A stretch of 64,000 nt of DNA from Bacillota bacterium (GTDB lineage Bacteria; Bacillota; Clostridia; Monoglobales; Firm-18), in the NCBI GenBank assembly GCA_023228885.1, contig JALOAJ010000010.1:1350-65349 (forward strand). Direction: 5' to 3'. Below the pieces are notes generated by a model, which was given only the letters and a program-made list of their open reading frames with translations, made no database searches and was not told the origin of the DNA. The stretch's first letter is position 1, and each line of letters opens with the position of its first letter. This document shows, one piece after another, positions 2,750-60,449 of the stretch. Both the position numbers and the translations under genes were made by a program.

Positions 2750-2750
2750 A

Positions 2751-3851
2751 ATGATTAAAGATAAAGCAAAAGAGTTGGGAATTGATGATATCGGTATCGG
2801 GAACATTGAAAGGTTTGATAACGCTCCCCCCCTCATGTCTGTAAAAAACTATTTTCCCGGCGCAAAATCCGTCATTGCAATTGTTATGCGTATACCAAGG
2901 GGATCGTATAGGGGAATAGAAGAGGGGACACATTGGCATAATTACACTTTTTATTCTTATAACAGGTTAAATACAACAATACGCCCAAGACTTACATATG
3001 AACTTTCCAGATTTATTGAAGATTTCGGCTGGGAGGCGGTGCCTCATTATCCGGGTGTGCCGGAACGAAATCCGGCTATGGAGCCTGTTGCCCCCGGGAA
3101 GCTGCCGCCGAACATTGTTACAAGTATAAGATTGGTTGCTGCAGGGACGGGTGTTGGTGAAATTGGGCATTCAAAGGTTTTTCTAAATAAAAAATTTGGA
3201 CCCAGACTTAGACTTGGTTTAATATTTACTGATGCAAAGCTTAAACCGGATCCAATATTGGAAACAGGCACTATATGTTCACATTGCGGTGCCTGTGTTA
3301 GAAAATGCCCCGGAAATGCTGTTCCTCCTGTTAATGATAAATTAAGCAAGGTCGAGATCGATTATGGTGAAAAGAAAGTATATTACGGCAATGTGCAAAT
3401 GGGACGTTGCACCTTGACACATCATGGGTTTAATAATGAAATTTCACCTTTTCTAAAAAAATCATTTCCGAATATGGAGTTTGAGGTCAAGAATTCAAAC
3501 ATGAGCGAAGAGGAAGCCTATCGTTTATGTTACCCAATGGCACAAGCACAATGGGGGGCTACTTTTAACGATAATAATAATAAATCAGTAATTGAATATT
3601 ATGATTATGTTATGAAACATGTCGGCTATTTCGCAGTTTGCGGTGCAAAAGGCTGTATTCGTGCCTGTATGGACAGTCTTGAAAACAGTAAACGGATTAC
3701 CAATACCTTTAAAAATCCTTTTTATCGCAAAAAATCATGGGTTTTATCAAATAAACCCGAGGAAATTGCAGAGGGCATTAATCCCTTTAGAAATGAATGG
3801 CTTGATAAAAACTATCCTGGAATAAGGGAGAATGAAGAAAAAAATATATAA
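2751..3851 (+). CDS. cytoplasmic 4Fe-4S protein, QueG/RdhA-superfamily-like reductase (paralog 2, longer C-terminus)
   Basis: Collinear with the upstream gene: MIKDKAKELGIDDIGIGN vs KKIGIDILGFAD, GTGVGEIGHSKVFLNKKFGPRLRLGLIFTDAKLKPDP vs the paralog core. It carries CSHCGACVRKCP and a later CGAKGCIRAC. The start could be 2730 or 2751; the track ORF start at 2655 overlaps the upstream gene. Confidence 0.65.
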   Translation: MIKDKAKELGIDDIGIGNIERFDNAPPLMSVKNYFPGAKSVIAIVMRIPRGSYRGIEEGTHWHNYTFYSYNRLNTTIRPRLTYELSRFIEDFGWEAVPHYPGVPERNPAMEPVAPGKLPPNIVTSIRLVAAGTGVGEIGHSKVFLNKKFGPRLRLGLIFTDAKLKPDPILETGTICSHCGACVRKCPGNAVPPVNDKLSKVEIDYGEKKVYYGNVQMGRCTLTHHGFNNEISPFLKKSFPNMEFEVKNSNMSEEEAYRLCYPMAQAQWGATFNDNNNKSVIEYYDYVMKHVGYFAVCGAKGCIRACMDSLENSKRITNTFKNPFYRKKSWVLSNKPEEIAEGINPFRNEWLDKNYPGIRENEEKNI

Positions 3852-4773: not shown

Positions 4774-7700
4774 TTAATCAACCCCTAAGGAATGAATTAA
4801 CCGAAAAGTCATAACCATCGCCTGTTCACGAGTTGCGTTTTGCTTCGGACCGAAGGACCCGTCCTCATATCCGACTATCAGCCCCAAAGAATAAGCCTTG
4901 TCTATATAATCTGTCGCCCATCCGCTTATTTCGTCATGATCCGTAAAGCTGTGCGGTTCCTCGCTTACAGCACCATCAGAAGACATACAATAAGCGATAA
5001 TCAGCACTTTAGCCATTTCCTCACGGGTTATAGGATCGTTTGGGCGAATGTATCCGCCGCTGCCTTCTATCAGACCAATGTCAAACGCCGTATGCACAAT
5101 ATCAGTATACCATTCATCATCAGAAACATCAAATAGACTTCCGCTCCATGAACTTTTAAGCTCTGTTCCCAGCATTCTCAGGATCATTGCCGTAAATTCC
5201 GCCCGTGAGATCTGAGTGTTCAAGTTAAGCGAGCCGTCCGAGCCGGTTACAATGCCATGGTCAATCAGATACACCAATTCCTGCTCCGACCATAATCCTG
5301 CTGCCTGCTCCTTCATTTTGTCCTTGTCAGAAGCGTCTGGATTATTCGGTTGCTCCGTGCCACCGGAAGTGCCAGTGCTATCTGGATTCGCGGGGTTGAT
5401 GGGTGATGAAATGCCGCGACCGCCGCCATGTGGATTAGTCGGAGAAGTGGGGCTGATAGGCGGGGGAGTGATATCCGGCCGGCCTCCTGTGGGGGGAGTG
5501 GAATTGAAGTACACATATCCGTCTTTATAACTGTACGACTGCGGCGTTCCGTTCATCGTAACCACGACGGGCCTCACCGATGAGTAAATTATAATATCTG
5601 TCAAATCCACAACACTTTCATATCTGTCGTCAATTTCTTCATAGCGGATAGACCGGTTATCATTTTCAATATTCGGCGAGCTTACAAGAGACAATCTTGC
5701 GCCGTTCCACTCAATCGACAGCTCCGGTATTGTTTTACCGCCCCGATCCTGCACCGCAAACATTTCTTCAGTTTCATCCTTTATATAGGAGCCGTTTCTT
5801 AAAATAATCCGGCGGGGACGGCCGTTATTCAAGTCCTTTTCATAATATACCAATTCCCCGTCAGTTGTAGTGCTTCCAAAAGCAATGTCTCTTTTTTTGC
5901 TCAAATCATGCAGTATATAATAAGAAAATTCATACTGCTCATTTGACACGCCCGAGGTGTCCTTTACATTTGCTTTAAAGGCAGAGGCCTCCCCTTTACC
6001 CACCCCTATATCAAGAGGCGCCGGATCTACAGAATACGAGATACCCGGTCTTGTGGGGAACAGGATTGTATCCATGCTTGTCGTGCCTTTAACCTGCTTT
6101 TCAAAAACTCCGTAGGGCGAGTTAAACAAGCCTGTGCCGGCATGAACCCTTCCCCAAAGAAGCATGGGCTCAACGCTGTCTATGTCGGCAGGCACAACCA
6201 TCAGATTCGCACCTCCAACCCTGTTTGAGCGTATGGTTCCGTTTCCCGCTTCCGTAACAAATACAGTGTTGGCCACCCGGCTGTCCATCTTCACGGTGTT
6301 GTTTTCAAACGGTCCTATGCAGCCGTCAATGGAAATCCCAGCCTCGGGCATCATATGCCACAGCTGAGAATATTTATTTACCTTGCCTATATTCTCTCCC
6401 ACGGGATCCATATGATCCGAAATAATCCAGAAGTTGGGGCGGACAAACAATATATTGCGTTTATAATCCATTCCGTCATCGTGAGGAATGGAGCCGTCCC
6501 CCTTGCCTGGCAGAATTACCGGATCAATCCGATAGGTTAAATCCTTATAAGTATGCGAATAAATTCTGCTGAAATCATAAGCGTCGTTCAAAACGGTTGC
6601 CTCCATTATGTTTCCCAAACGAAGTCCTCGTCTTCCATTTTGGTCTAAGGCGCTGCCGTCTGTGATAGGCAAGGCTTTGTCATGAGACGAGCCGTGTGAC
6701 TTCGAGGAAAAGTCGTTCATTTGCATCACATTATGCGCTCGGCTTGAATACAGCCATCGTATTTCAAGATTCATTCCTGCAGAATCGTAAGCATAAAAGC
6801 CTGAGTCCGAAAGTAAGCTGTCTCCGTATCCTGCGACAATAATATTGTTATCATCCCAATGCCCGTGGGAGCCGTCGTTGGCATCCGCGCTTGTGTACAG
6901 GAAAAGTGCGTTGGTGTCCCAACCGGTTCTCATCACAACCTTTCGGGAATCCCAATACCTGTATGAGGTGAAATCAGGCGGGGTGCCTCTCGCCTTACTG
7001 TTTTTCTCATCTCCTCTGGTCGCCACCCATACTATATCCTGAACCTTCGGTCCCCATACAGGGTGGTGCTCCAGCCAATATCCCGCCTTGGCTATATCCG
7101 ACCTGAAATTGCTGCTTTTGCTATACGCACCGCCATCCCCTATCTGTGTGTTTCTCCAGCCGGGGGCGGTCGTAATCATAAGGGCGCGGCAAAGATCAAC
7201 CATGCGCTGGATTAACACATCAGAAAATTGGAGGTCAAACTGCAGGGATTCAGCCGTATTCCTTGGACCAAACATTGTGGTTATCGCATATTGGTTATAA
7301 CCGGCGGCAAGCTCCCAGCACGCACCATCATCAAACACCATATTGCCGGTGTTTTCATCAATCCGCTCCATCAGTATGTTAATCCAACTGTCCCGCAGCA
7401 TTTCACCGTTTTTGTCATAAACCGGGTTGTCTATGGCAAAAAACTCGGGATAGTTCCCCATGATTTGAAACCATCCATTGGTAGACGCTGTACCCCAGTT
7501 GTTTCCCGCCTCCTGATTGGTCCAGTACTGCGAGTGAGTTTCTCCCATGCTCCATGCATACTTCAAAAATACCGTAAATATCTCCGCCGTCATAGGAGAA
7601 GGACTGGTTTTGGATCCCATCAGGCGGGAAATCGTTCCCGGCCAATTGGAGGAACGGCTGTGCAAATCCAAGCCCTTTCTCCAGCCTCCGCCCACCAAGC

Positions 7701-9522
7701 CCGGAATATTTCTTCCGCCTGAGGTTCTCGGATAGGTTACGCCCGGCCCTCCTGTGTAACGGTTGTAGGTTTTCATAATCCAATCCTGCAAATACATAAT
7801 AAATGTCTGTGCGTAAAGCTGATTACCGGATGCCAAAAATTGATTGTTCATTATGCTATACCAACTGCTGCCTCTGGATATGTCCTCCTCAAAGCGTGGC
7901 GGCGGATTTCCTCCCCGGCTCAAAACCGGGTCGGTTCCGTCATTGATGATAGGCTGTCTCCATGCAGTTCCGTATTCACCTTCGTAGGAGAACGCAACAT
8001 TAAATATTGATTGATTGCCGAAATACAGCTCTTCCATAGGAGCATCCGCGCCTGTTCTGGCTTTATCCGTCCAACCTACATTGCCAAGAGTGAGTGCCAC
8101 AATCCTTTTCTTGTAATTGGGATGCGGCGGATTGGCAACGGCAGGCTGTACCCCATCATTTGCCGGATAGAATCTGCCCCGCATAATCAAGGTGGCGGAG
8201 GAAATTTGCTCTCCGGCGTTCATGCCCTGACGAAGGTCGAACATGATATATGTTCTTTTTGTTCCCTCATCCACGGGCAGCTTCATCATGCTGTGCGGGT
8301 CGGTGTTGGCGGCGGTTCTTATAGAGGTTCTGGATTCGCAGGCATAGATAGCAGGATCATCGCCAAAAGTTTGATTGGCGTATGGATTGCCTGCCCGCGT
8401 GTATGTAATATACTTCGCCGGGATATATTTCGTTGTGTTTCCTACTTTTACTTCCAAATAAGGAGATTCTCCCAAAACAGGATAGTAGCCATCCTCCCCT
8501 TTTGCTCCCTTTAAAAATTCCGCTTCATATCCGTCCTTGTTTACCGCTAAAATCTGGACGGGCATAAGCCAGTTGTAGGTGTTTCGCTCGGTCATAAACC
8601 GAACTGCCTGCTCCGTCATTTCAAAAGTTATTTGCTTAAAATCGCTTCCTAAATAATCCATATAGATGATGTCGCCTACATTCGCGTAACTACTGTTGGC
8701 AAGGTGCATATTTTGCAGAAGAAGATTGGCACGCAAGCGGGTTTGACGATCTGCCGAAGCCGCATTTGTTACGCCGCGCGCCTCTAATTTCTTTTGATAA
8801 TATTTATATAATTCATCCTTAGCCTTAGCATAATTCCCCTCTATAGCAGCTTGCTTGACCGAATTCAAATTCACCCCGGGATACGGCGATACATAGTCAT
8901 AATCCAAAAGCGGAACAGTCATCACTCTTATTCGTCCGCCTACTAAAGCTCCGGTGGGTCCTTGAAGATTAAACGACTTGCTTTCGCGCACGAAATCGTT
9001 TATCACCGGATCCCAAACGCCGAATAATTCCTCATCCATAGGATAATTTCTCGGCTCGACAAATTCAAAATTACTAAAGTCAAAGCTTACCTGCAAATCA
9101 GGGTCTTTGCTGAAAGCAAAGGCATCAATAATTCCCTGCATAGCGAAGGAAGTATACCCCTCGCTTTGTTCAGACATGGGTTCGATAGACGCCTCGGCTT
9201 GAATTTTCATGGATTCTTCCAAACTTTCTTTTGGCGTTTCGCCATTTTCCTCCAAAGTTTCGTCAGAGATATGGTCACAGTAAATATCCTCACATTCGTC
9301 TATGTCTTCCGCGGAATCGTCTATTTCAAAGCCCATATCAACCATCAGCTCAAGCAGCGCTTTTGGATTATCCTGCAAATATTCCAGGTATTCATCCGTA
9401 AACCCAAATTCCTCTAACAGCCCTGAAGCGTTGGTATCTTTACTGGAAAATACCATCGAAGCCGGTGTTAAAGCAAACGAGAAAACCATAACCAATATTA
9501 GTGCTAATATTCTTCTTTTCAT
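4774..9522 (-). CDS. secreted heparinase II/III-like (polysaccharide-lyase fold) protein with Pro-rich linker and three C-terminal SLH repeats
   Basis: Signal peptide MKRRILALILVMVFSFALTPASM. Toroid-domain motifs are EAGNNWGT and FDDGACWELAAGYNQY. The Hepar_II_III block is GSHGHWDDNNIIVAGYGDSLLSDSGFYAY and NILFVRPNFWIISDHMD. Linker: TPPPISPTSPTNPHGGG. SLH repeats include FTDHDEISGWATDYIDKAYSLGLIVGYEDGSFGPKQNATREQAMVM. Confidence 0.8.
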   Translation of the reverse strand: MKRRILALILVMVFSFALTPASMVFSSKDTNASGLLEEFGFTDEYLEYLQDNPKALLELMVDMGFEIDDSAEDIDECEDIYCDHISDETLEENGETPKESLEESMKIQAEASIEPMSEQSEGYTSFAMQGIIDAFAFSKDPDLQVSFDFSNFEFVEPRNYPMDEELFGVWDPVINDFVRESKSFNLQGPTGALVGGRIRVMTVPLLDYDYVSPYPGVNLNSVKQAAIEGNYAKAKDELYKYYQKKLEARGVTNAASADRQTRLRANLLLQNMHLANSSYANVGDIIYMDYLGSDFKQITFEMTEQAVRFMTERNTYNWLMPVQILAVNKDGYEAEFLKGAKGEDGYYPVLGESPYLEVKVGNTTKYIPAKYITYTRAGNPYANQTFGDDPAIYACESRTSIRTAANTDPHSMMKLPVDEGTKRTYIMFDLRQGMNAGEQISSATLIMRGRFYPANDGVQPAVANPPHPNYKKRIVALTLGNVGWTDKARTGADAPMEELYFGNQSIFNVAFSYEGEYGTAWRQPIINDGTDPVLSRGGNPPPRFEEDISRGSSWYSIMNNQFLASGNQLYAQTFIMYLQDWIMKTYNRYTGGPGVTYPRTSGGRNIPGLVGGGWRKGLDLHSRSSNWPGTISRLMGSKTSPSPMTAEIFTVFLKYAWSMGETHSQYWTNQEAGNNWGTASTNGWFQIMGNYPEFFAIDNPVYDKNGEMLRDSWINILMERIDENTGNMVFDDGACWELAAGYNQYAITTMFGPRNTAESLQFDLQFSDVLIQRMVDLCRALMITTAPGWRNTQIGDGGAYSKSSNFRSDIAKAGYWLEHHPVWGPKVQDIVWVATRGDEKNSKARGTPPDFTSYRYWDSRKVVMRTGWDTNALFLYTSADANDGSHGHWDDNNIIVAGYGDSLLSDSGFYAYDSAGMNLEIRWLYSSRAHNVMQMNDFSSKSHGSSHDKALPITDGSALDQNGRRGLRLGNIMEATVLNDAYDFSRIYSHTYKDLTYRIDPVILPGKGDGSIPHDDGMDYKRNILFVRPNFWIISDHMDPVGENIGKVNKYSQLWHMMPEAGISIDGCIGPFENNTVKMDSRVANTVFVTEAGNGTIRSNRVGGANLMVVPADIDSVEPMLLWGRVHAGTGLFNSPYGVFEKQVKGTTSMDTILFPTRPGISYSVDPAPLDIGVGKGEASAFKANVKDTSGVSNEQYEFSYYILHDLSKKRDIAFGSTTTDGELVYYEKDLNNGRPRRIILRNGSYIKDETEEMFAVQDRGGKTIPELSIEWNGARLSLVSSPNIENDNRSIRYEEIDDRYESVVDLTDIIIYSSVRPVVVTMNGTPQSYSYKDGYVYFNSTPPTGGRPDITPPPISPTSPTNPHGGGRGISSPINPANPDSTGTSGGTEQPNNPDASDKDKMKEQAAGLWSEQELVYLIDHGIVTGSDGSLNLNTQISRAEFTAMILRMLGTELKSSWSGSLFDVSDDEWYTDIVHTAFDIGLIEGSGGYIRPNDPITREEMAKVLIIAYCMSSDGAVSEEPHSFTDHDEISGWATDYIDKAYSLGLIVGYEDGSFGPKQNATREQAMVMTFRLIHSLGVD

Positions 9523-9544
9523 AAATATCCGTTCTCCTTTACTT

Positions 9545-12295
9545 TCATTGGACTATCACAATAGCCCGAGGCACAACGCGTGGGTCGCTGCTGCTTACGC
9601 TGGTCGCATACACCACAACATACAACGCATTATCCATAAACTCGTCATGAGTGCCAAGCCTTGCGGTATCATTTTTTAAGTTGTACACAAAAACTGGAGG
9701 CGGGCTGCTGATTTGAACATCATAATTCTTTGAAAAACCCATGCCATCGCTCATATTTATAATATCGACCTTGCGGTTCAGCAATTCGGATACTCGATTA
9801 TACCGAACATCCGCAATATCACCCACAAACACCTCGGAGTTGACGTCAATAGAAGTATAAGCTTTAAACACAGACGAATCAAGATGCTGTATAAGAGTAT
9901 ACGCATCAAGCTCATTACTGTTGTTCAGAGAATATTCTATTAACTGTCCGGTTCTAAGCCCGCTAAAATTATATCCTCCCGCGTGCTCGGATACAAAGAA
10001 ATCCTCCGGGCCTTTCGATGTGATTATTTTTACGAATGTTCTTTCTTTTTCCTCCTCATCCAGCTTTTTACTCATTTTATAAACAATCCCGTACTTTGAA
10101 ATGGAGCTGCCGGGAACATCATATATCATGCTCGCACTGATTACAATCAAAGCCACACAGGCGCTGTCCTCGTCAAAGTCATAGCCTTCTATCGAGTAGA
10201 ATTGATTGTTATTAAGCTCAATGTCCGCTAAATAATTATCGTCTTCGGATTCCTGGTTTATCTGAGGCAGGCACAGCGCGATGGTGCGGTTTCTGATTCC
10301 GTAAGCGCCGTTGCCCACATCGCCTGAAAATGTTTTTTCATACGCGTTATATTTCTTTCCGACCTGCCAGTCTCGACCGACAAGCTTAGGAGCCGTAAGC
10401 TGAGTTATCTGTCCCTTTGCGTTAAGCTGATACTTAAGGGGCAGGGAGGTGGATTTTATTGCGGTTCCGCCGACATTTGTCCTTTCGTCAAGCATTGCCT
10501 GAAAAAACGGTGTGATTTCATTTGTTTTTAATGATCTTATGCCCGTTTCATCCTCAAAGGATACCCGGTCGGCAAATTCCAGGGTGCCGATGCCTTTATT
10601 TTTTGCTGCGATAGCCGGAACCGATCCTGAGTATGAATCCGGAGACGGTTCTTCCTCGCTGTCGGAGAACACATTGCCGTATAAAACCTTTGCTAAGGGG
10701 CTTTGCATTGTTCTATCCCTCACAGATAGAAGTGCAATATAATTCAAATCAGAAAGCACTCCTTCGCTAACATATACCACATTTCCCCTGTAATCTAAAT
10801 TTATGGTCACTTCCTTGCCCAAAAACTTGTTAAAACCACTCTCTTGTGCAAATGATTTTCCTAAATCATAGGTTGCACCGCCAATTACTATAAACCCGGG
10901 GTCTAAAGAAAATTCCTCAATTATACCGTCAATTTGGCTTCTTGACACATATACCTTGATTAAGGTTTCATCCACATCAATAAATATGCTCACTGTATCC
11001 CCCGGAGTTATATCCTCAATTGCCACCGGATTGTTGTCCGCATCATATATATAGCTTTTAAGATATATGTTTCTGTCATCTTTTAAAATGATACCGGATT
11101 TGCCGTTTAAACGCTTATCATGCGAAAAATTAATCCGGTATGATTCAGGATTGACTGAGCTGACCACAAAACTTTGATATTCGTTAAAAAGCAGCACATT
11201 GTACTCGCTGCCCCCATCATTTGAGATGAATGTAATATATCCTTCCATGAGTTCTTCCGTGTTTATACTTGCCCAATCCCGCGGCAGGCCATTATATAAT
11301 AAATCGACATTGGGCGCAATTTTTTTCGTAATGATTTGTTTGTTTTGCTCATAGGAAACCTCTTCGTTTGTTAGGCTGATAATATCCTTATTCTCAATAA
11401 TATCAATGATATTGTTTCTTTCATCGGGTAATATTGATTTAATGATATACTTATTTGTGCTTTCCTCCAATACTACATAAGCGTCAACCGTAAGACCCAA
11501 ATAAGATGCGGCATCCGTATTTCCCGCACGTATTACAACATCATCAATCATAATTTCATCATCCCTCAGATTGACATTAGGGGCAAGAAGCCATGAATCA
11601 TAGTTTGCCGTAACAACGCCGCGAACCTTGAAGGTATCATCTTCCTTATTTAACAAATAATTTCGAAGGGTATCTCCGGATTTCAATGTGTGAGCTCCAT
11701 CGGAACGGTAGTGACTGGTAATTAGGCGGTTTGCATTCAACGCGTTAAAAATCATATACAACGACTCGCAATATGTTATTAGCTCGTTAGCAGGCGTTGA
11801 TACGCCATTTAAGAGCCTGCAGTACCCCGCCGAAATCAAGTATCCTTCAGGATAGCCGCCGTAGTTCTTGGCCTGAGGCTCATATCCCAAGAGCCTTACC
11901 AGCATGATGGACGCTTCTAAAACAGTCAGGTTTCTTTCCGGGTGAAAATTTCCGTCTACATCCCCGTCAATGATTCCCATTGCTGTCAAAAAGCCTATCG
12001 CCGGCAAGTACCGATGTTCGCCCGGAACATCCGCGTATTTTGAGGCGCTGCCGCTTAAAGACTGATCGTCTGAGTTCAAAAGCTTATGCAGCATTTCGGA
12101 AAATTCCGCGCGTGTAATATTTTTTCCAAGTTCCCCACCGTCCACATCCCCCTCTATAACATTAAAGGCTTGCAAATCCAGTATCAGCGCGGAAGACAGG
12201 GAGATTTCCGCATGGGAAAAGCCAAGAGGTGTAGCAACCACTGCTAAAACCACTGTCAGACAAATAAATTTTTTGAATACTTTTTTAAGCTTCAT
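9545..12295 (-). CDS. cell-surface protein with N-terminal SLH repeats and an uncharacterised ~700-aa body (paralog of 53141..55888)
   Basis: Signal peptide, then SLH-like repeats (YADVPGEHRYLPAIGFLTAMGIIDGDVDGNFHPERNLTVLEASIMLVRLL). The remainder has no motif I recognise. It is collinear with the locus-B protein. A 22-nt gap separates it from the downstream lyase-fold gene. Confidence 0.75.
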   Translation of the reverse strand: MKLKKVFKKFICLTVVLAVVATPLGFSHAEISLSSALILDLQAFNVIEGDVDGGELGKNITRAEFSEMLHKLLNSDDQSLSGSASKYADVPGEHRYLPAIGFLTAMGIIDGDVDGNFHPERNLTVLEASIMLVRLLGYEPQAKNYGGYPEGYLISAGYCRLLNGVSTPANELITYCESLYMIFNALNANRLITSHYRSDGAHTLKSGDTLRNYLLNKEDDTFKVRGVVTANYDSWLLAPNVNLRDDEIMIDDVVIRAGNTDAASYLGLTVDAYVVLEESTNKYIIKSILPDERNNIIDIIENKDIISLTNEEVSYEQNKQIITKKIAPNVDLLYNGLPRDWASINTEELMEGYITFISNDGGSEYNVLLFNEYQSFVVSSVNPESYRINFSHDKRLNGKSGIILKDDRNIYLKSYIYDADNNPVAIEDITPGDTVSIFIDVDETLIKVYVSRSQIDGIIEEFSLDPGFIVIGGATYDLGKSFAQESGFNKFLGKEVTINLDYRGNVVYVSEGVLSDLNYIALLSVRDRTMQSPLAKVLYGNVFSDSEEEPSPDSYSGSVPAIAAKNKGIGTLEFADRVSFEDETGIRSLKTNEITPFFQAMLDERTNVGGTAIKSTSLPLKYQLNAKGQITQLTAPKLVGRDWQVGKKYNAYEKTFSGDVGNGAYGIRNRTIALCLPQINQESEDDNYLADIELNNNQFYSIEGYDFDEDSACVALIVISASMIYDVPGSSISKYGIVYKMSKKLDEEEKERTFVKIITSKGPEDFFVSEHAGGYNFSGLRTGQLIEYSLNNSNELDAYTLIQHLDSSVFKAYTSIDVNSEVFVGDIADVRYNRVSELLNRKVDIINMSDGMGFSKNYDVQISSPPPVFVYNLKNDTARLGTHDEFMDNALYVVVYATSVSSSDPRVVPRAIVIVQ

Positions 12296-12331: not shown

Positions 12332-13213
12332 CTATCCCTTCACGGCGCCTATCATAATTCCTTTGACAAAGTATTTCTGTAAAAACGGATATAAACACAA
12401 TATCGGAAAGGTTGCGATTACCATTGTCGAATATTTAATCGTTTCACTTACCATCTGTGTATCCGCGGCATTTCCCCCGCTTGTCATTGATGCCGTATCA
12501 TTCACAATCAGTATTTCACGAAGCACTAGCTGCAATGGATATAAATTCCGATTTTTAATAAAAATTATCGCATTGAACCAGGCGTTCCAATGATGCACTC
12601 CATAGTATAGGATAATCACCGCGACTGTAGGCAGCGACAGCGGCATCACTATTCTCCACAAGATGGTAAAATGTCCCGCTCCGTCCATTTTCGCGGATTC
12701 CTCCAAGCTGTACGGTATGCACATAAATGCTGTTCTCATAATAATCAGGTTAAATGTGCCTATCGCGTTCGGTAATATCAATGACCACAGAGTGTCATAG
12801 AGACCCAGCTCCCTTACCAATAAGTAAAAGGGTATAAGCCCTCCGCTGAAAAACATTGTAAACACTATTATCCACATTACCTGCTTTTGGAATACAGCCC
12901 TTGGTCTGGATAAAAAATACGCGCCAAAGCTTGTCAGTGTCAAATTCAGTGCCACTCCGACTATCACAATTACTATTGTGTTTCTGTATCCTATACCAAT
13001 CATTGAGTTTTGCAAAACCGTTTTATAAGAATCAAATGTAAAACCTAAAGGGTTCCACAGTATTCCTTGATGTGCCATATGCCGCATCGGCTCTGAAAAT
13101 GATACCATCAGTATATAGTAAAGGGGATATGCTATAACAAACAATAACGCCGTCAAAAATGCCTTATTGAAATAATTAAATATTTTTTCGTTTTTTGTGT
13201 ACTCCAAGCCCAT
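12332..13213 (-). CDS. carbohydrate ABC transporter permease (LplC/YtcP-like)
   Basis: Multi-TM, 293 aa. It has the EAA-loop region ESAKMDGAGHFTILWRIVMPLSLP. Its paralog is at 44239..45135. Confidence 0.9.
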   Translation of the reverse strand: MGLEYTKNEKIFNYFNKAFLTALLFVIAYPLYYILMVSFSEPMRHMAHQGILWNPLGFTFDSYKTVLQNSMIGIGYRNTIVIVIVGVALNLTLTSFGAYFLSRPRAVFQKQVMWIIVFTMFFSGGLIPFYLLVRELGLYDTLWSLILPNAIGTFNLIIMRTAFMCIPYSLEESAKMDGAGHFTILWRIVMPLSLPTVAVIILYYGVHHWNAWFNAIIFIKNRNLYPLQLVLREILIVNDTASMTSGGNAADTQMVSETIKYSTMVIATFPILCLYPFLQKYFVKGIMIGAVKG

Positions 13214-13228
13214 ATAAATCCTCCCCTG

Positions 13229-14188
13229 TTACCACAATTTTGTGTCTGCAAACTTCCTGGTTATTGTGTTTGCAGATATAAGCAGTATGCAATTTATTAA
13301 TCCGTTGAACAGCCCCACCGCCGTAGAGTAACTCCAGTTAGCTTCCAATAAGCCTTTTCTGTATACATACGATGATATCACATCTGCTTTGCTCATAACG
13401 GCGTCATTATACAACAGAATAATCTTTTCAAAGCCCACATTCATTAGTCCGCCGATTCTTAAGATAAGCATTATGATTATCGTTGGAAGCAGGCATGGCA
13501 GGGTGATGTTTATAGTTTGCCTTATTCTTCCGGCTCCGTCTATTCTTGCCGCCTCATACAGCTGCTGGTCTATTCCCACAAGTGCCGACAGATAAATTAT
13601 CGAGCCCCATCCGACCTCCTGCCATATTCCTGATATTACATAAACCGGCATAAATAAGTTGGGTTCTTGCAACATCGTTTTCTGCGGAAAGCCAAATATA
13701 CCCAGAACCTGCGTAATTACTCCGTTATATCTTGTGAATTCAATTACCATTCCGCATGTTACGACCAATGACACAAAATGCGGCATATAGCTTAATGTTT
13801 GCACAATTCTTTTGAATTTTGTTCCATGAAGCTCGTTTATGAGCAGAGCAAATAGTATTGGCGCAGGGAATCCAAATAAAATGGTCGCCAGGCTTATGCG
13901 CAGCGTATTGGTAAATGTCCGCGCGAAATACGGCGAACGGAAGAACTCCTCAAACCATTGGAAACCAACCCACGGGCTGTTCCATAGTCCCTGCGCCGGT
14001 GAAAAATGTTTAAAGGATATTATTGCCCCGCCCATTGGGATGTAGCAGAATATAATATAGTACAGCAACACCGGGATAATCATGATGTACAGCGACTTCT
14101 CATTTTTTATGAGCGTCCATGTATGCTTTGCTCTACTTCCCAAGCTTATCCCCCTTTTTTCGGTTCTTGTATTCATATCCATGGTCAT
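13229..14188 (-). CDS. carbohydrate ABC transporter permease (LplB/YteP-like)
   Basis: Multi-TM, 319 aa. It has the motif EAARIDGAGRIRQTINITLPCLLP. Its paralog is at 43262..44221. Confidence 0.9.
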   Translation of the reverse strand: MTMDMNTRTEKRGISLGSRAKHTWTLIKNEKSLYIMIIPVLLYYIIFCYIPMGGAIISFKHFSPAQGLWNSPWVGFQWFEEFFRSPYFARTFTNTLRISLATILFGFPAPILFALLINELHGTKFKRIVQTLSYMPHFVSLVVTCGMVIEFTRYNGVITQVLGIFGFPQKTMLQEPNLFMPVYVISGIWQEVGWGSIIYLSALVGIDQQLYEAARIDGAGRIRQTINITLPCLLPTIIIMLILRIGGLMNVGFEKIILLYNDAVMSKADVISSYVYRKGLLEANWSYSTAVGLFNGLINCILLISANTITRKFADTKLW

Positions 14189-14271
14189 CTAAGCCTTTCA
14201 CTGTATATATTTTAATGTCAATTCGAATTAAACAATTTCCTTGTTGCGAATTGAAAAATAATATAAATTCC

Positions 14272-15909
14272 TTACCTGTTCATGTACCGGTCGTATGCGT
14301 TTTGCTGCATTTTAATGGCGTCTTCAATTCCAAAGCTTTTTAATTGCGTGATATACGCATCAAAATTGTCAAGAGATTCCGTTCCCAATAACACCTTTAA
14401 GCTATATTCGTCGACATAAGTCTTAACATTGTTTATAATGCTTGAAAATTGTGCGCTTTCACCCTCACTTATTGAAACCGGAGGCAAAATATGATTTACG
14501 GCCTCACTGCTGTTCCACGCGGTAAAAGCTTCCTTTTGGCCTGGCAGCATCCAATATTGCTCTATATACTCCCTGCGCTGCTCAAAAGGGCCGCTGTAGG
14601 TTGCTCTTGCATATGCGGACCACGCCTGCGAAACCGACCAGCCTTCTGGATGGTTCATTACAAAATAAGACATTTTGGGGTATCCATCGATTATATTATA
14701 GCTTTCGCCTTCCACACCAAAGTTGTACAACATATTCCCTTTTTCGGTGTAGCCGTAATCGAGGAAACGCGCCGCAAGCTCAACATTTTGGGATTTCGCG
14801 GTGATTGCCGTAAATTGATTCGATGCGTCCACAGGGTGTACCATTGATGTATATTTCACTGCGTCTCCCCGGTTCTTAACAGGAAACTGCACCGGCAAAA
14901 GCTCCGCATTTAAGTCCTGTGCTTCAAATGCAGGCACATATTTACTAAGTGTTGAACCGGGATAGCATGCGAAGGCCCCTGTCCGGCCGTTTAATACATA
15001 GGAGTCCATAGCCTTGCCGTCCGTTGTTCCTATGCCTTTATCAATCAAGTCCTCCGAGTACCATTTTTGCAGGGTCGCCAGCAGTTCTTTATACTCCGGC
15101 AAATACGCTCCGTATTTGACTTGACCATCGTCTATAAAAAATTCTTTTTTTAACCCATATGCTCCTGAAAATAGGCCGTTTGCAAGAATAAAAAAGGTTC
15201 CTTGATCCTTACTTACCGCAAAGGGCGCCGTGGCTCCCTTTTGCACCTTGAATGCAGTAAGCATGGCGTGCCAGTCGCTAATGGTTTCGGGAAGCGGTAA
15301 ATTCAGCTCATCCAGCCAATCCTTGCGAACAACGGGTCCGTACGAGGTCAGTAATATATCATCTCCGCGTACGAAGGGAAAAGCGAAATACTTACCGCTG
15401 TCCGTTTTCACGGCCCTTTCAACATTAGGATTTGCCTCCATATACTTTGTCATATTCGGAGCGTAGTTTTTAAACACATCGTTTAAGGGAATGATAATGT
15501 TTTCTGCAATAGCCTTTTCAGGGCCACCCGTATATCTGGTTATCCACTTTATCTCTATTATGTCCGGAAGGTTGCCGGACGCTATCATTAGATTAAAATC
15601 GACATCGCTTTGGCCAGCCGGTGGATGTATATATTGAACCTTTATCCCGGTTTCATTTTCCAGTTCTTTTCCTAAAGGTGTATCAGTGATGCTCTTGTAA
15701 TTCGCGCTGATGCTTCCTTGCAAATCAACCCAATAGGTCAGCGTCCTATCTGTATTGATTGGATACGATGTTTCTCCCGGCTGCGTAACAGGTGATTCCT
15801 GGATTATTCCTCCTCCGTTACCGCCTCTGCACGAAATTAACAGGCTGCCCGCCACCGTAATACAAATTGCCAAAGCTATAATTTTTTTAATTTTCACTAT
15901 GCTTCCCAT
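14272..15909 (-). CDS. extracellular solute-binding lipoprotein (large LplA-type SBP)
   Basis: Lipobox LLISC, 545 aa, typical family-1 large SBP composition. The start may be the GTG at 15897, which is better spaced from the GGAG RBS. Confidence 0.85.
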   Translation of the reverse strand: MGSIVKIKKIIALAICITVAGSLLISCRGGNGGGIIQESPVTQPGETSYPINTDRTLTYWVDLQGSISANYKSITDTPLGKELENETGIKVQYIHPPAGQSDVDFNLMIASGNLPDIIEIKWITRYTGGPEKAIAENIIIPLNDVFKNYAPNMTKYMEANPNVERAVKTDSGKYFAFPFVRGDDILLTSYGPVVRKDWLDELNLPLPETISDWHAMLTAFKVQKGATAPFAVSKDQGTFFILANGLFSGAYGLKKEFFIDDGQVKYGAYLPEYKELLATLQKWYSEDLIDKGIGTTDGKAMDSYVLNGRTGAFACYPGSTLSKYVPAFEAQDLNAELLPVQFPVKNRGDAVKYTSMVHPVDASNQFTAITAKSQNVELAARFLDYGYTEKGNMLYNFGVEGESYNIIDGYPKMSYFVMNHPEGWSVSQAWSAYARATYSGPFEQRREYIEQYWMLPGQKEAFTAWNSSEAVNHILPPVSISEGESAQFSSIINNVKTYVDEYSLKVLLGTESLDNFDAYITQLKSFGIEDAIKMQQNAYDRYMNR

Positions 15910-15918
15910 CTCCTGTCA

Positions 15919-18900
15919 TTATTTTGATACATAAATTTCAATTGCTTTTTCAATCATTTTGGCGGATTCGGCGCGCGTTAAGTTGTTTTTTGGTAAAAAT
16001 GTTCCATCAGGATAGCCGCTTATTATGCCAGCGGTTTTCATTAACGCAACCGCTTCCTTGGCGTATTCGCTTATATTATCCTCGTCCATGAAAACCATAT
16101 TATCTGCGGGTTGAAGGCCGTAAGAGCTTCCAGCGACTCGGGAAATCACCGTTGCCGCGTCCTCCCGTGTGATAAAATCGTTTGCGCCAAACAAGCCATT
16201 TGTATATCCGGTGATGATTTTTGCCTCAGCTGCCGCCACTACCCATGGAGCGTACCATTCACCGGAATCAATGTCGGCAAAAGAGATTTCTCCCTTACTG
16301 GACGGCTGAATGTCAAATGCGGAAAGTGTCATCTTTATGAATTCAGCGCGCGTTATATTGTTCTGCGGATAAAAATCTCCATCACCGCCGCCATTCACAA
16401 TTCCCAAGTCATAAAGTGCCATGATTGAAACATACGCCCAGTGACCGGGTACATCCTTAAACGCCTCTCTGGATTCTTTTCCGGCTTCGGTAGGCTGCGT
16501 GTCCGCTATCAACGGTATATTGATTCCCACGCTTGTGACGCTTCCTCCCCTGCCACTGCTTCCCCCACCTCCACCGCTTCCAGGCAAGCCGCTGGCAGAT
16601 AGGGTTCGGACAGAAAGCACAGCCGGTTCGCTGCTGACCCCGTTATTGTCAGCGGTCACCTCAAATGTGTAGGAGGTATATGGAGCTAATCCGGAAAAGC
16701 TTAAGCTTGTCGCGGTGAGTTCAGCTTGAAACTTTGAACGGTTCATATACACGCTGTAGCCTGTTACACTTCCTTCGGGGATAGTCCAGCTCAAGGTTAG
16801 TGAGGTTTGTGTAATGCCACTTGCCATCAGATTAACAGGTGCGCCCGGCACCTGCAGCCAGTGCCCCATTCCATCGCTCCCCATAACCCCTGCAGCTTGA
16901 CTCCCTCCGTCTGTGACCAGACCACCGGCGCTTTCCGCTTTGATTACGGCACCCTTATCCGCTTTTATGGAAGATAAGGAATTAACCGCAAGCTTGCTTC
17001 TCTCTGCTATAAAAATAGAAGATGTGCTGTCCATTTCGGCTGCAGTTCCCGTTAAAGTCAAGGAAACGCCACCCGCCACGATTAGGGATGCGCCTTGAAG
17101 GCTAATTATTTTTCTTCCGCCGTCAATTGTATGATCAATATTTTGCCTAAATACTCCTGTAAAGGAATACCTGCATACATTACCGCTCGGCAAGCAGGTC
17201 ATGTTCATGTTTGCTCCTTCACCCAGGGTAAATACGGACGGTGCGTCTTTCGTACCCACGATATTCACTCCATCGTACGACAGCCCGCCTAAGCCGAAGA
17301 CACCAATCATTGCCCCGTCCGCTATGGACAACTCACCGTTTGACGCATTCAAGATGCCGTAAGTTTCCACCCGTGAGCCGTTTCCTTCAAGAACAAGAGG
17401 ACCGGAGTTCTCCGAAACTGTTAATGTTATGCCTTCCGAAATTGTTAATGTCATCCCGCTTGGAATAATCATAGCGGTTCCGCTCGGTACCTCTGCACTG
17501 TATCCCAATACGGCGCTTTGTGTTAATGCAATGCAATTCAGCTGCGGGTAATAAGCCGCATTGTTGTCTAAGGCTGATATCAGTGCCACCACATCGGAGG
17601 AAGCTCCACGGGAAATGATATTCAACACTGCAGTGTTGGAGATTGCGTTTCCGCTTGTTAAGCGGAAAAAATATGTGCCCGAGGCTGTGTCCGTTGTGGT
17701 TAGTGCGGTAATCAGAGATGTGTTATTTGATATGTCGGAAACGGATATGTCCACGCCTGCGGGGGGCTCATTTATTATGACGGTTCCCGCCGCATCGTTG
17801 CAGTACAGCACATCAAGAGCGGTATCGTTTGGAATATATGTTGTTTCAACCTCATAGGTGGCTCTTCCATTCACCCTTTCGGTCACATTTCCCATTTGTC
17901 TGCCTATGGTTATTGTCGCCTCGTTGATGACTACCGCGCCTGTATTAATAGAAACCGCTTCTCCGCCCGTAAGCTTGAAGTAATACATACCTGCCGCCGC
18001 AATTTCTGTTGTGGTTACATAGATCTTTGATGTATTACCGACTATGTCGTTTGCGGTAATTGTTATTCCAACCGGCTGGCTTGCGGGTTCTCCGGCACTG
18101 TTTGTGCAATATATCACCTCAAGAGGCGTATTGTCGGGAATATTAGCCGCTATCACATCAATCACCGCCGCATCCGCAATCCCTTGAACCAACAATTTAC
18201 TCTGGATTGTTGCAATATTTATTCTGGGAGCGGGAGTCAGGACTAAGGATGCTAAATTGGACTCCGCTCCACAGCTCGCGAGTTTAAAGTAATAGGTTCC
18301 GGTCACGGACTCCGGTGAAACCGTTACTGTCACTAAATCGGCGTGAGCCGTAATAATTATCCCGTTCGGAGGCGCCCCTATGTCGTTCCCCTCGTTGTCA
18401 CAGTATATTGGGACAATGGGTGCGCCGCTTGTTATGTTCGCGGTTGTCAAGTTAAATGATGCCATTCCTGCCGTCCCCTCTTTTACCTCTCCCATTTGGG
18501 GCGCCTCCACCGTTATCGCGGGAGCGGCCGAGCTTACAACAATTGATGCTACATTAGATTCTGCGCCGCCAAATTCTCCATCTTCTTCACCAATCAGTTT
18601 AAAATAATATATGCCGCCCGAGATTTCCCCCGTTGCGTTTACTGTAACAACAGACCTTTCACCGGTCACGCCGGCTGCCATGACGGTCATGCCTCCTGGT
18701 TGGCTTCCGGGTGCGCCGTCTGCATTTGCGCAGTATATTACATTAAAAGCCGCCCCGTCATCAATGTTCATCGTGACGACGGAAAAGACCGCTTCTCCCG
18801 GCGTTCCGGCTATCAGCACTCCGTTTTGAACCGGCAAAATTTCTATATCCGGCTCACTCGTCGCCGTCACATTTACCACGCAGCTTTTATAGACATTGAT

Positions 18901-22539: not shown

Positions 22540-22594
22540 GTTGAAGCTTCCCCCTCTACGCAACACTTTTTTTACCATCCGCCCTCTTTTTGGT

Positions 22595-50169: not shown

Positions 50170-50217
50170 GCGGCGAAGCTTTTTATGGTCGCAATATATA
50201 GGGAATGGATGTGTAAT

Positions 50218-60417: not shown

Positions 60418-60449
60418 ATAAAATAATGATTTTGCGATTGGAGGGGCTT

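What the first reader, a model, noticed from the sequence alone, without database searches (positions are those of the whole stretch)
9545..12295. Uncharacterised ~915-aa N-terminal-SLH protein recurs immediately upstream of a giant lyase-fold gene in both loci
The proteins at 9545..12295 (minus) and 53141..55888 (plus) are clear paralogs with collinear blocks: GGYPEGYLISAG/GGFPHGYVFIAS, GYITFISNDGGSEYNVLLFNEY/GYITLIENTGDNKYDIVFITDF and GATYDLG/ANTYDLG. Each sits directly upstream of a 1500-aa heparinase II/III-like gene, with a 22-nt gap in locus A and 26 nt to the GTG in locus B. Their SLH repeats are N-terminal, whereas every neighbouring SLH protein carries them at the C-terminus. The remaining ~700 aa contain no catalytic or binding motif I can recognise. 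A conserved two-gene module with an unknown partner is the best candidate here for an undescribed functional unit. It could be a cell-wall-proximal scaffold, a substrate-capture protein, or a partner required for the lyase-fold enzyme.
Basis: partly seen in the sequence, partly recalled or inferred. Interest (0 to 1): 0.7.

Follow-up and report, generated by a model that had tools for sequence, protein, structure and literature searches.

The report
S-layer-like partner of giant wall-anchored lyases
The two ~915-aa proteins are real, uncharacterised, non-enzymatic cell-wall-anchored proteins built like S-layer proteins, and one lineage of them is always encoded with two giant wall-anchored polysaccharide-degrading enzymes, which points to an undescribed three-protein surface unit in Clostridia.

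Summary
Both ORFs exist and are distant paralogs (25% identity, E 3e-21). Each lies 22 or 26 nt upstream of a ~1500-aa heparinase II/III-like gene.

Each protein has a signal peptide, an N-terminal three-repeat SLH domain that matches SpaA/Sap structurally, and a ~700-aa all-beta body. The body is a string of small OB/SH3-like barrels. It has no Pfam, NCBIfam, PDB-sequence or Foldseek match to any enzyme, CBM or known S-layer assembly domain.

Both belong to a large unnamed Clostridial family. Most members are stand-alone, cysteine-free, acidic genes, which is the S-layer-protein pattern, and they have no lyase nearby (0 of 80 genome loci).

A sits in a well-supported subclade (bootstrap 99%) of 11 members. 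Ten have a CBM96/heparinase II/III/SLH giant in the same array, and the eleventh contig ends too early to tell. An aBig_2/F5_F8/SLH giant accompanies all ten relatives, but not A. A reciprocal search starting from the lyase found the partner in 6 of 6 loci.

So the unit has three genes, not two. My best reading is a non-catalytic, S-layer-derived organiser of the two enzymes (about 0.45). Glycan capture is the main rival. B belongs to a different, less consistently linked lineage.

The parts
9545..12295 (-). Protein A, 916 aa. Signal peptide, N-terminal SLH trimer and a ~700-aa all-beta body. Member of the lyase-linked A-clade.
   Evidence: ORF and translation. Family HMM 662 bits, full length. 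AF2 model mean pLDDT 83.6. A-clade bootstrap 99%.
12209..12295 (-). Predicted Sec signal peptide of A (res 1-29, MKLKKVFKKFICLTVVLAVVATPLGFSHA|E).
   Evidence: Read directly from the sequence. It is a low-confidence N-terminal helix in the model. No signal-peptide predictor was run.
11726..12208 (-). SLH trimer of A (res ~30-190). SLH1 has TRAE (R62), SLH2 has TVLE with G111, SLH3 has GGYPEGY (Y148) with TYCE.
   Evidence: Pfam SLH 30.7 bits. Family profile against SpaA-SLH, E 7e-20 over res 30-185. Foldseek SpaA/Sap SLH, TM 0.64-0.79, prob 1.0.
9548..11650 (-). Body of A (res 216-916). String of roughly ten small OB/SH3-like beta-barrels, with no catalytic or CBM signature.
   Evidence: DSSP of the model. 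Foldseek best body hits are bS1, EF-P, Unr cold-shock arrays and RPA. Weak internal repeats by hhalign, 86-88%. In the body, only G226, N335, G457, G783 and G794 are invariant or nearly invariant family-wide.
10598..10663 (-). A-clade-specific acidic insertion (res ~545-566).
   Evidence: Present in 11 of 11 A-clade members. Absent from the B lineage and from solitary members.
10256..10351 (-). A-clade-specific motif YNAxEKxF ... T..xC(I/L)P..N (res 649-680). Cys675 is invariant.
   Evidence: Cys675 is present in 11 of 11 A-clade members and 0 of 78 others.
4774..9522 (-). Partner of A. 1582-aa heparinase II/III-like giant with C-terminal SLH, 22 nt downstream.
   Evidence: Pfam Hepar_II_III_N, Hepar_II_III_C and SLH. 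Remote match to heparinase III 4mmh, E 6e-9. Junction.
12332..15909 (-). Two ABC permeases and a 545-aa solute-binding protein directly upstream of A, on the same strand with gaps of 15-83 nt (36 nt to A).
   Evidence: Pfam. Coordinates. Junction. No terminator-like site in the gaps.
15919..22578 (-). 2219-aa giant surface protein with Big_2, fn3 and C-terminal SLH, at the head of the locus A array.
   Evidence: Pfam.
53141..55888 (+). Protein B, 915 aa. Same architecture as A but in a different sublineage, grouping with L091 at 96% bootstrap. Its SLH is more degenerate (LRGD; His in place of the SLH2 Gly; F148).
   Evidence: AF2 model pLDDT 80.2. Foldseek SpaA-SLH TM 0.7-0.8 and OB-type arrays for the body. 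Bootstrap.
50185..53115 (+). 976-aa giant with aBig_2, FIVAR, DUF4073 and C-terminal SLH, 25 nt upstream of B. Counterpart of the aBig_2/F5_F8/SLH member of the triad.
   Evidence: Pfam. Junction.
55915..60366 (+). Partner of B. ~1483-aa heparinase II/III-like giant with Cu_amine_oxidN1 and CHB_HEX_C_1 and no SLH. Starts at a GTG 26 nt after the B stop.
   Evidence: Pfam. Junction with RBS. No PDB sequence hit.
48643..50169 (+). 508-aa ABC solute-binding protein heading the locus B array.
   Evidence: Pfam SBP_bac_1 and DUF3502.

Best explanation
A and B are secreted, non-catalytic surface proteins. Their N-terminal SLH trimer holds them on the pyruvylated secondary cell-wall polymer. They belong to a large, unnamed Clostridial family with the architecture of SLH-type S-layer proteins: signal peptide, SLH trimer, and an acidic, fast-evolving, beads-on-a-string beta body. 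Here the beads are OB/SH3-like barrels rather than Ig-like domains.

Most family members are solitary genes and probably true S-layer subunits. A and B are operon-embedded derivatives. They are co-transcribed with an ABC importer and with giant surface enzymes, all SLH-anchored except B's own lyase.

In A's subclade the gene is fixed in a triad with an aBig_2/F5_F8_type_C/SLH giant and a CBM96/heparinase II/III/SLH giant.

My most likely mechanism is inferred, not shown. The protein would be the structural organiser of this triad. It would be a wall-proximal, self-associating platform or local lattice patch, made in step with the two enzymes, that positions or spaces them on the SCWP layer next to the importer. 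The A-clade-specific acidic insertion and the YNAxEKxF...C motif would be the candidate contact surface.

Shown: the architecture, family membership, lack of any catalytic signature, operon layout, and conserved triad linkage. Inferred: SCWP binding, self-association, and contact with the enzymes.
For: Architecture:
- Pfam detects only SLH.
- The family profile matches SpaA/Sap SLH only.
- The two AF2 models have pLDDT 83.6 and 80.2.
- In both, the SLH trimer matches SpaA at TM 0.7-0.8 and the body matches only OB-type barrel arrays.
- No charged or catalytic residue is conserved in the body.

S-layer-like family:
- At least 150 clusters at 50% identity match full length and score better than or about as well as A.
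- 70 solitary members have a median upstream gap of 280 nt. In 88% the gap is at least 150 nt or the upstream gene is divergent.
- Among the 71 members outside the operon-embedded clade, the median is 0 Cys and pI 4.56.
- These are the criteria the S-layer review lists, along with N-terminal SLH for S-layer proteins and C-terminal SLH for exoenzymes (PMC4232325).
- A beads-on-a-string body and condition-specific paralogs (Sap and EA1) are known for S-layer proteins (PMC12175726).
- Tandem body fusions hint at self-association.

Linkage:
- The junctions are 22-36 nt with ribosome-binding sites and no terminators.
- The triad occurs in L001/2, L003, L007, L092, L093.
- It also occurs in L094, L097, L098, L099, which were found from the lyase side. 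That search gave the partner in 6 of 6 loci.
- One MAG carries three triads.
- A-clade bootstrap is 99%.
- Lyase-core identities to A's lyase rank in the same order as partner identities to A.
- The clade has its own conserved insertion and motif.
Against: - No lattice formation, self-association or enzyme contact was tested or could be tested here.
- The body has no similarity to any solved S-layer assembly domain.
- A and B carry 3-4 cysteines and sit inside operons, unlike classical S-layer genes.
- Both giants of the A-clade triad carry their own SLH anchors, so they do not obviously need an organiser.
- B's closest relatives (L089, L090, L091) are not lyase-linked.
- B's SLH2 lacks the conserved Gly.
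- Higher aromatic content in the operon-embedded clade (9.35% against 7.7%) would also fit glycan binding.
- The operon-embedded superclade has only 77% bootstrap support in a distance tree.
Confidence: 0.45

Rival explanations
1. Surface glycan-binding (substrate-capture) protein. The barrel array binds the target acidic polysaccharide at the wall and feeds it to the lyase and the ABC importer, like SusE/F-type SGBPs of Bacteroidota PULs.
For: - The gene sits inside polysaccharide-utilisation operons next to a solute-binding protein and permeases.
- It is non-catalytic.
- The operon-embedded clade has more aromatic residues than solitary relatives, 9.35% against 7.7%.
- The clade-specific conserved Tyr/Phe/Asn/Glu/Lys patch could be a ligand site.
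Against: - No CBM was recognised by Pfam or Foldseek.
- Small OB/SH3-like barrels are not the usual fold of PUL glycan binders.
- The partner giants already carry CBM96 and F5_F8_type_C (CBM32-like) modules.
- Most of the homologous family lies outside glycan loci.
Confidence: 0.25
2. Ordinary S-layer subunits of this organism. Their position next to lyase genes has no functional meaning beyond shared surface localisation.
For: They have the architecture and acidic pI of SLH-type S-layer proteins, and the wider family behaves like S-layer genes.
Against: - Tight operonic junctions.
- Linkage conserved in all 10 assessable A-clade loci and recovered 6 of 6 times from the lyase side.
- Two to three copies per genome, each with its own enzyme set.
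- Cysteine content unlike that of the solitary clade.
Confidence: 0.1
3. Anchor or adaptor. It tethers to the wall enzymes that lack their own anchor, in a cohesin-like role, or it acts as a secretion or folding helper for the giant enzymes.
For: Lyase B has no SLH domain, yet it directly follows B. Non-catalytic SLH-anchored scaffoldins are known from cellulosomes.
Against: - No cohesin, dockerin or other adaptor module was found.
- In every A-clade triad both giants have their own SLH triplet.
- There is no precedent for a ~900-aa surface-anchored chaperone.
Confidence: 0.1
4. Cryptic enzyme. The A-clade motif with invariant Cys675, Asn, Glu and Lys is an unrecognised active site, or a site of an intramolecular cross-link.
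For: Cys675 is invariant in 11 of 11 A-clade members, and N650, E653, K654 and F656 are conserved alongside it.
Against: - The motif is absent from B and from the rest of the family.
- No fold similarity to any enzyme was found.
- The residues sit in a small barrel-array context.
Confidence: 0.05

Closest known systems
SLH-type S-layer proteins (Sap and EA1 of Bacillus anthracis, SbsB of Geobacillus stearothermophilus, SpaA of Paenibacillus alvei)
   Same: - Signal peptide followed by an N-terminal three-repeat SLH domain. The fold matches SpaA/Sap SLH at TM 0.64-0.80, and the profile E-values are 7e-20 and 8e-24.
- About 100 kDa with pI about 4.6.
- A multidomain beads-on-a-string beta body that evolves much faster than the anchor.
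- Paralogs used under different conditions, as with Sap and EA1.
   Different: - The body is made of OB/SH3-like small barrels, not Ig-like domains.
- There is no sequence or fold match to any solved S-layer assembly domain.
- A and B are embedded in enzyme operons and contain cysteines.
- Lattice formation is unknown.
S-layer-associated SLH exoenzymes (e.g. XynA, AmyB and PglA of Thermoanaerobacterium; SLH glycoside hydrolases of Caldicellulosiruptor)
   Same: They are anchored by SLH on the same wall polymer and take part in polysaccharide breakdown. The neighbours of A and B are of this kind.
   Different: Those proteins carry SLH at the C-terminus and have catalytic and CBM modules. A and B carry SLH at the N-terminus and have neither.
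Cellulosomal anchoring scaffoldins (SdbA, OlpB, Orf2p of Acetivibrio thermocellus)
   Same: They are non-catalytic, SLH-anchored proteins that are encoded with, and organise, polysaccharide-degrading enzymes at the surface of Clostridia.
   Different: No cohesins are present here. The partner enzymes have no dockerins and, in the A-clade, carry their own SLH. Scaffoldins have C-terminal SLH.
Surface glycan-binding proteins of Bacteroidota PULs (SusE/F and other SGBPs)
   Same: They are non-catalytic, multidomain beta proteins encoded inside a polysaccharide-utilisation locus beside the transporter and the enzymes.
   Different: SGBPs are lipid-anchored in an outer membrane and built of CBM-like beta-sandwiches. 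There is no homology, and glycan binding is not shown for A or B.
OmpM and Deinococcus SlpA (N-terminal SLH outer-membrane tethers)
   Same: N-terminal SLH followed by a beta-rich region.
   Different: Those have one SLH, a coiled coil and a large membrane beta-barrel. Only the SLH part of A and B matches them.

Membership tests
SLH domain trimer (Pfam PF00395; SpaA/Sap type) | Sequence match to the SLH model above the curated cut-off. | tested here: met
   A scores 30.7 bits against a cut-off of 20.8. B scores 18.3 bits, below the cut-off. The family profile that contains both matches Sap SLH at 8e-24 and SpaA SLH at 7e-20.
SLH domain trimer (Pfam PF00395; SpaA/Sap type) | Three repeats folding into the three-pronged helical spindle. 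| tested here: met
   Foldseek of both models against SpaA-SLH and Sap-SLH gives prob 1.0, target TM 0.64-0.80 and about 165 aligned columns.
SLH domain trimer (Pfam PF00395; SpaA/Sap type) | Ligand-site residues of the main groove: Arg of the SLH1 TRAE motif, Gly of the SLH2 loop, and an aromatic residue in SLH3 (SpaA R61, G109, W151; PMC8942822). | tested here: inconclusive
   A has R62 in TRAE, G111 and Y148. B has R61 in LRGD, His at the Gly position and F148. Binding itself was not tested.
SLH-type S-layer protein | Secreted, with the SLH trimer at the N-terminus and an assembly region of about 600-900 aa after it. | tested here: met
   The criterion is from PMC4232325.
SLH-type S-layer protein | Composition: 40-170 kDa, pI 4-6, few or no sulfur-containing residues. 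| tested here: inconclusive
   Size and pI (4.57 and 4.72) fit. A has 4 Cys and B has 3, similar to other secreted proteins of the window. The 71 members outside the operon-embedded clade have a median of 0 Cys.
SLH-type S-layer protein | Stand-alone, strongly expressed gene. | tested here: not met
   A and B lie inside co-directional arrays with gaps of 22-36 nt and no terminators. In contrast, 88% of 70 solitary relatives have an upstream gap of at least 150 nt or a divergent upstream gene. Expression was not measured.
SLH-type S-layer protein | Homology of the body to a known S-layer assembly domain. | tested here: not met
   No hit outside the SLH part to Sap, SbsB, SbsC or others, by sequence or by fold.
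SLH-type S-layer protein | Self-assembly into a two-dimensional lattice on the cell. | not testable with these tools
   This needs EM of cells or of recombinant protein, or multimer or symmetry modelling.
Cellulosomal anchoring scaffoldin | Cohesin modules, with dockerins on the partner enzymes. | tested here: not met
   No cohesin or dockerin hit in A, B or their neighbours.
Carbohydrate-binding module / SGBP | A recognisable CBM or CBM-like beta-sandwich. | tested here: not met
   Pfam found none. Foldseek body hits are OB-type nucleic-acid-binding arrays only. Binding was not tested.
Heparinase II/III-like lyase fold (the partner genes) | Hepar_II_III_N and Hepar_II_III_C domains above the curated cut-offs. 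| tested here: inconclusive
   The N domain passes in both partners, at 48.2 and 29.2 bits against 22. The C domain passes in A's partner (26.7 against 24) but not in B's (15.5). A's partner is remote to heparinase III 4mmh, E 6e-9. B's partner has no PDB sequence hit. Catalytic residues were not examined.

The most novel reading that the evidence does not exclude
The triad would be a previously unrecognised kind of cell-surface depolymerase machine in Clostridia that needs no cohesin or dockerin. It consists of the N-SLH barrel-array protein, an aBig_2/F5_F8/SLH giant and a CBM96/heparinase II/III/SLH giant. In this reading an S-layer-derived, non-catalytic subunit specifically docks or patterns the two giant SLH-anchored enzymes, through the A-clade-specific acidic insertion and the YNAxEKxF...Cys patch. 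The wider solitary family would be a new structural class of S-layer protein built from OB/SH3-like barrels.
Probability: 0.25. Interest if true: 0.8.

Novelty: new variant of a known kind. Interest (0 to 1): 0.6.

Why it matters
Gram-positive polysaccharide-utilisation systems are far less understood than those of Bacteroidota. How their giant SLH-anchored enzymes are arranged on a wall that also carries an S-layer is an open question.

A non-catalytic, S-layer-like protein fixed inside such operons gives that question a concrete, testable handle. It recurs with the same two enzyme types across metagenomes, and up to three times in one genome.

Separately, the solitary relatives are a large, unnamed candidate S-layer family of gut and sediment Clostridia. 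Their body fold is not seen in any solved S-layer protein, which matters for cell-envelope biology, for phage and immune recognition, and for surface display.

The partner enzymes are very distant heparinase II/III-like and aBig_2/F5_F8 giants. They may also be new CAZyme families acting on an unknown acidic glycan.

Tried and rejected
- Pfam and NCBIfam on A and B returned only SLH.
- PDB sequence searches with the single proteins and with the family profile matched only the SLH region.
- Foldseek against viral structures returned only SLH and OB-type hits.
- The search for related loci with the 64-, 12- and 5-sequence alignments failed because no stretch was conserved enough. A 3-sequence alignment worked, but its search patterns favour the solitary clade.
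- The body-only profile search was limited by the word pre-filter to 13 hits. It still gave two key relatives, P0155 and P0157.
- SecA adjacency as a marker of S-layer genes was found in only one locus, Tepidibacter L075, so I did not use it.
- The first bootstrap run used a Kimura correction that produced NaNs at these distances. I discarded it and replaced it with a Poisson distance.
- Literature searches for SLH with heparinase, CBM96 or Gram-positive PULs found nothing about this module.
- I considered and rejected three ideas. An OmpM/SlpA-type outer-membrane tether is ruled out because only SLH matches. A cellulosomal scaffoldin is ruled out because there are no cohesins. The paralogy between A and B is not an artefact of the SLH alone, because the alignment extends through res 472 and the HMM match is full length.
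Full report
**1. The observation**

The window holds ORFs at 9545..12295(-) of 916 aa (A) and 53141..55888(+) of 915 aa (B). BLASTP aligns them at 25% identity over 413 residues, E 3e-21, with a weaker C-terminal segment. Both match an HMM of the family from end to end, at 662 and 668 bits.

Two of the three quoted blocks are at aligned positions. The third is not. GATYDLG is A 473-479, while ANTYDLG is B 402-408, about 70 residues from the homologous column.

The junctions are as described. The A stop is followed by 22 nt and then the ATG of a 1582-aa gene, preceded by AAGGAG. The B stop is followed by 26 nt and then a GTG at 55915, preceded by TAGGAGGG. The TTG at 55885 is only the mechanical ORF start.

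The downstream proteins carry Hepar_II_III_N above Pfam's cut-off. A's partner also carries Hepar_II_III_C and a C-terminal SLH. B's partner has Cu_amine_oxidN1 and CHB_HEX_C_1 and no SLH.

All other SLH proteins of the window have SLH at the C-terminus.

The window comes from a 76-kb metagenome contig, ENA ERZ27247346. The organism is not known.

**2. Anatomy**

A starts with a typical signal peptide, MKLKK...GFSHA|E. B has MTVRR...TIGA|ED. Both were read from the sequence; no predictor was run.

Residues ~30-190 form three SLH repeats. The family profile aligns with the whole SpaA SLH trimer (E 7e-20) and with Sap (8e-24). The AlphaFold models (A pLDDT 83.6; B 80.2) superpose on SpaA/Sap SLH structures at target TM 0.64-0.80.

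Using the SpaA ligand site as described in PMC8942822:
- A keeps the SLH1 Arg (TRAE), the SLH2 Gly (G111) and an aromatic residue in SLH3 (Y148).
- B keeps the Arg (LRGD) and an aromatic residue (F148), but has His at the Gly position.

This fits B's sub-threshold Pfam score.

The remaining ~700 residues are all-beta. In both models the only credible fold matches are arrays of small OB-type barrels. These are ribosomal protein bS1, EF-P, Unr cold-shock domains, HIN-200, RPA and LEF-3. There is no enzyme, no CBM and no Sap/SbsB-type domain.

hhalign finds faint internal repeats. Residues 219-292 match 453-512, and 593-660 match 726-805, at 86-88%. Across 64 relatives, the only invariant or nearly invariant body positions are four Gly and Asn335. 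That argues against a conserved active site.

**3. The family**

Searches returned about 150 relatives at 90% clustering. Almost all are 850-1000 aa, have Pfam SLH only, and are named at most 'S-layer homology domain-containing protein'.

An exhaustive profile search listed 150 clusters at 50% identity that match full length. A ranks about 120th among them. The family is therefore large.

Eighty loci from species-representative genomes are mostly animal-gut Clostridia MAGs. They also include Oscillospiraceae, Acetivibrio sp., Sedimentibacter, Tissierella, Gudongella, Tepidibacter and Brevibacillus.

In those 80 loci no heparinase-like core lies within 10 kb. Seventy such members have these properties:
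- The median upstream gap is 280 nt.
- In 88% the gap is at least 150 nt or the upstream gene is divergent.
- In 56% the downstream gene is convergent.
- Only 2-3 have a tight same-strand neighbour.

The 71 family members outside the operon-embedded clade have a median of 0 Cys and pI 4.56.

Together with N-terminal SLH, this is the profile given for bacterial S-layer proteins. The review also notes that exoenzymes carry SLH at the C-terminus (PMC4232325). 'Beads on a string' bodies and fast-evolving assembly regions behind a conserved anchor are likewise typical (PMC12175726).

I therefore read the solitary members as probable S-layer subunits of a new structural type. This is an inference; no lattice has been seen.

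**4. The operon-embedded lineage and the triad**

In a distance tree, 18 members that sit in tight arrays with large surface proteins group together at 77% bootstrap. Within this group, the 11 members of A's subclade group at 99%. B groups with L091 at 96%.

Every A-clade locus that extends far enough contains a heparinase II/III-like giant in the same array. That covers 10 of the 11 members: the window plus 9 independent loci. In the 9 related loci the giant also carries CBM96 and SLH.
- It lies directly downstream in the window, L001/L002, L007, L092 and L093.
- It lies one or two genes further on in L003, L094, L097, L098 and L099.
- L006 ends before that point.

In the related loci the third constant member is a giant with aBig_2, F5_F8_type_C and C-terminal SLH. 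It is placed either before or after the N-SLH gene. L007 is an exception: the gene before the member there has F5_F8_type_C and SLH but no detected aBig_2, and it is cut by the contig end. In locus A the corresponding giant (2219 aa) has Big_2, fn3 and SLH instead. In six of the loci (the window, L003, L093/L095, L094, L098, L099) a ~540-560-aa ABC solute-binding protein lies in the same array or within a few kb.

The reciprocal test started from an alignment of lyase cores. It recovered six metagenome loci with full-length lyase giants, and all six carry a full-length family member in the array. One MAG, GCA_011262095.1, has three triads on three contigs.

Identities of lyase cores to A's lyase are 36-38% for L001, L092 and L093, 24% for L003 and L007, and 16% for B's lyase. 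These rank in the same order as identities of the N-SLH partners to A: 31-32%, 24-25% and 18%. That is what co-inheritance as a unit predicts.

The A-clade also has its own signatures:
- A 26-residue acidic insertion at A res ~545-566.
- The motif YNAxEKxF...T..xC(I/L)P..N at res 649-680. Cys675 is present in 11 of 11 A-clade members and in none of 78 other members.

Operon-embedded members have 3-9 Cys and more aromatic residues than solitary ones.

B is different. It lacks both A-clade signatures. Its relatives sit in glycan loci beside SLH giants but without a lyase (L089, L090, L091). Its own 'lyase' is only 16-20% identical to the A-type cores and has no SLH.

Locus B nevertheless has the order aBig_2/SLH giant, then B, then a heparinase-like giant. 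That is the same order as in L001, L092 and L093.

**5. Context in the window**

Locus A reads, all on the minus strand with gaps of 9-83 nt: a 2219-aa SLH giant, a solute-binding protein, two permeases, A, and the lyase.

Locus B reads: two permeases, a response regulator and histidine kinase, a solute-binding protein, the aBig_2/SLH giant, B, the lyase, and a further giant that runs off the window.

No terminator-like site falls in the gaps around A or B.

Other genes in the window are a sulfatase, GH39, a GH5-like protein, a GH127-like protein and AraC regulators. Related loci carry PL8, GH88, GH130, GH2, GDSL esterases and a fucosidase. These suggest an acidic, substituted polysaccharide as substrate. 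The substrate is unknown.

**6. Mechanism**

Shown:
- A and B are secreted, SLH-bearing, non-catalytic barrel-array proteins.
- They are derived within an S-layer-like family.
- They are encoded in one operon with an importer and giant surface enzymes.
- In A's clade they are inherited together with two specific enzyme types.

Inferred:
- They bind pyruvylated SCWP through SLH.
- They act as a structural organiser of the enzyme pair. This could be a self-associating platform or lattice patch that positions or spaces the giants near the importer, with the clade-specific patch as contact surface.

I put this at about 0.45. Tandem fusions of family bodies weakly support self-association.

The main rival is glycan capture, at 0.25. 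It fits the PUL setting and the aromatic enrichment. However, no CBM is detectable, and the enzymes already carry CBM96 and F5_F8 modules.

The other rivals are less likely: incidental adjacency of ordinary S-layer genes (0.1), an anchor or helper role (0.1) and a cryptic enzyme (0.05).

**7. Comparison and novelty**

The anchor is a bona fide SLH trimer. The whole protein works like, and may descend from, SLH-type S-layer proteins. It fails three membership features for A and B themselves: a stand-alone gene, homology of the body, and a sulfur-poor composition. Lattice formation cannot be tested here.

It is not a scaffoldin, an SGBP or an OmpM-type tether.

I found no paper that describes this family or the triad.

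I rate it a new variant of a known kind. It is an S-layer-type protein with a new body fold, recruited into a conserved three-gene surface enzyme cassette.

Interest is 0.6.

Noticed in passing
window 37592..38266(-) and 38324..38812(-): Two short adjacent ORFs. One is 224 aa with a C-terminal SLH, the other 162 aa with a Listeria-Bacteroides (Flg_new) repeat. They look like pieces of a broken SLH surface-protein gene.
   Followed up: partly
window 60426..64000(+): A third giant gene of more than 1191 aa, running off the window, directly after lyase B. It has no Pfam hit but a weak match to the lyase-core HMM at positions 616-804, 60 bits.
   Followed up: partly
window 22595..25108(-): An 837-aa protein with no Pfam domain. 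It has only a far-sub-threshold NCBIfam match to the BT3328-family hyaluronic acid endo-lyase (2.3e-11, 42.7 bits against a cut-off of 1100). It may be another unclassified lyase.
   Followed up: no
window 55915..60366(+): Lyase B lacks an SLH anchor, unlike every A-clade lyase. It carries a copper amine oxidase N-terminal-like domain and a CHB_HEX_C_1/Fn3_assoc module. It has no PDB sequence relative.
   Followed up: partly
L075 9872..15709 (Tepidibacter sp. Z1-5): A family member is followed after 66 nt by a 1114-aa SecA. This recalls S-layer genes next to secA2 in C. difficile and B. anthracis (from memory). It is the only such case among the loci. A second copy upstream appears split into two ORFs.
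   Followed up: partly
L011 7822..9639(-) and 15 other loci: A ~605-aa protein with N-terminal SLH and no other Pfam domain lies divergently upstream of solitary family members in 16 loci. It is the only recurrent neighbour of the solitary clade.
   Followed up: partly
L096, L098, L099 (MAG GCA_011262095.1, contigs JAAGKN010000625, 508, 662): One genome carries three separate copies of the triad of N-SLH protein, aBig_2/F5_F8/SLH giant and heparinase-like giant. Two of the three have a ~540-aa solute-binding protein directly after the lyase.
   Followed up: yes
P0163-P0165, P0232, P0292, P0300: Proteins of 1500-2600 aa that contain two or more copies of the family body, some with repeated SLH regions. 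They are either natural tandem fusions or merged gene calls.
   Followed up: partly
L090 2..2512 and 7270..10224: Two family members lie 4.7 kb apart in one locus, separated by sugar-metabolism genes (GFO_IDH_MocA, RpiB, GDSL).
   Followed up: no
window 1865..2749(+) and 2655..3851(+): Two overlapping ORFs with 4Fe-4S ferredoxin-type motifs at the left end of the window. They are unrelated to the glycan loci.
   Followed up: no
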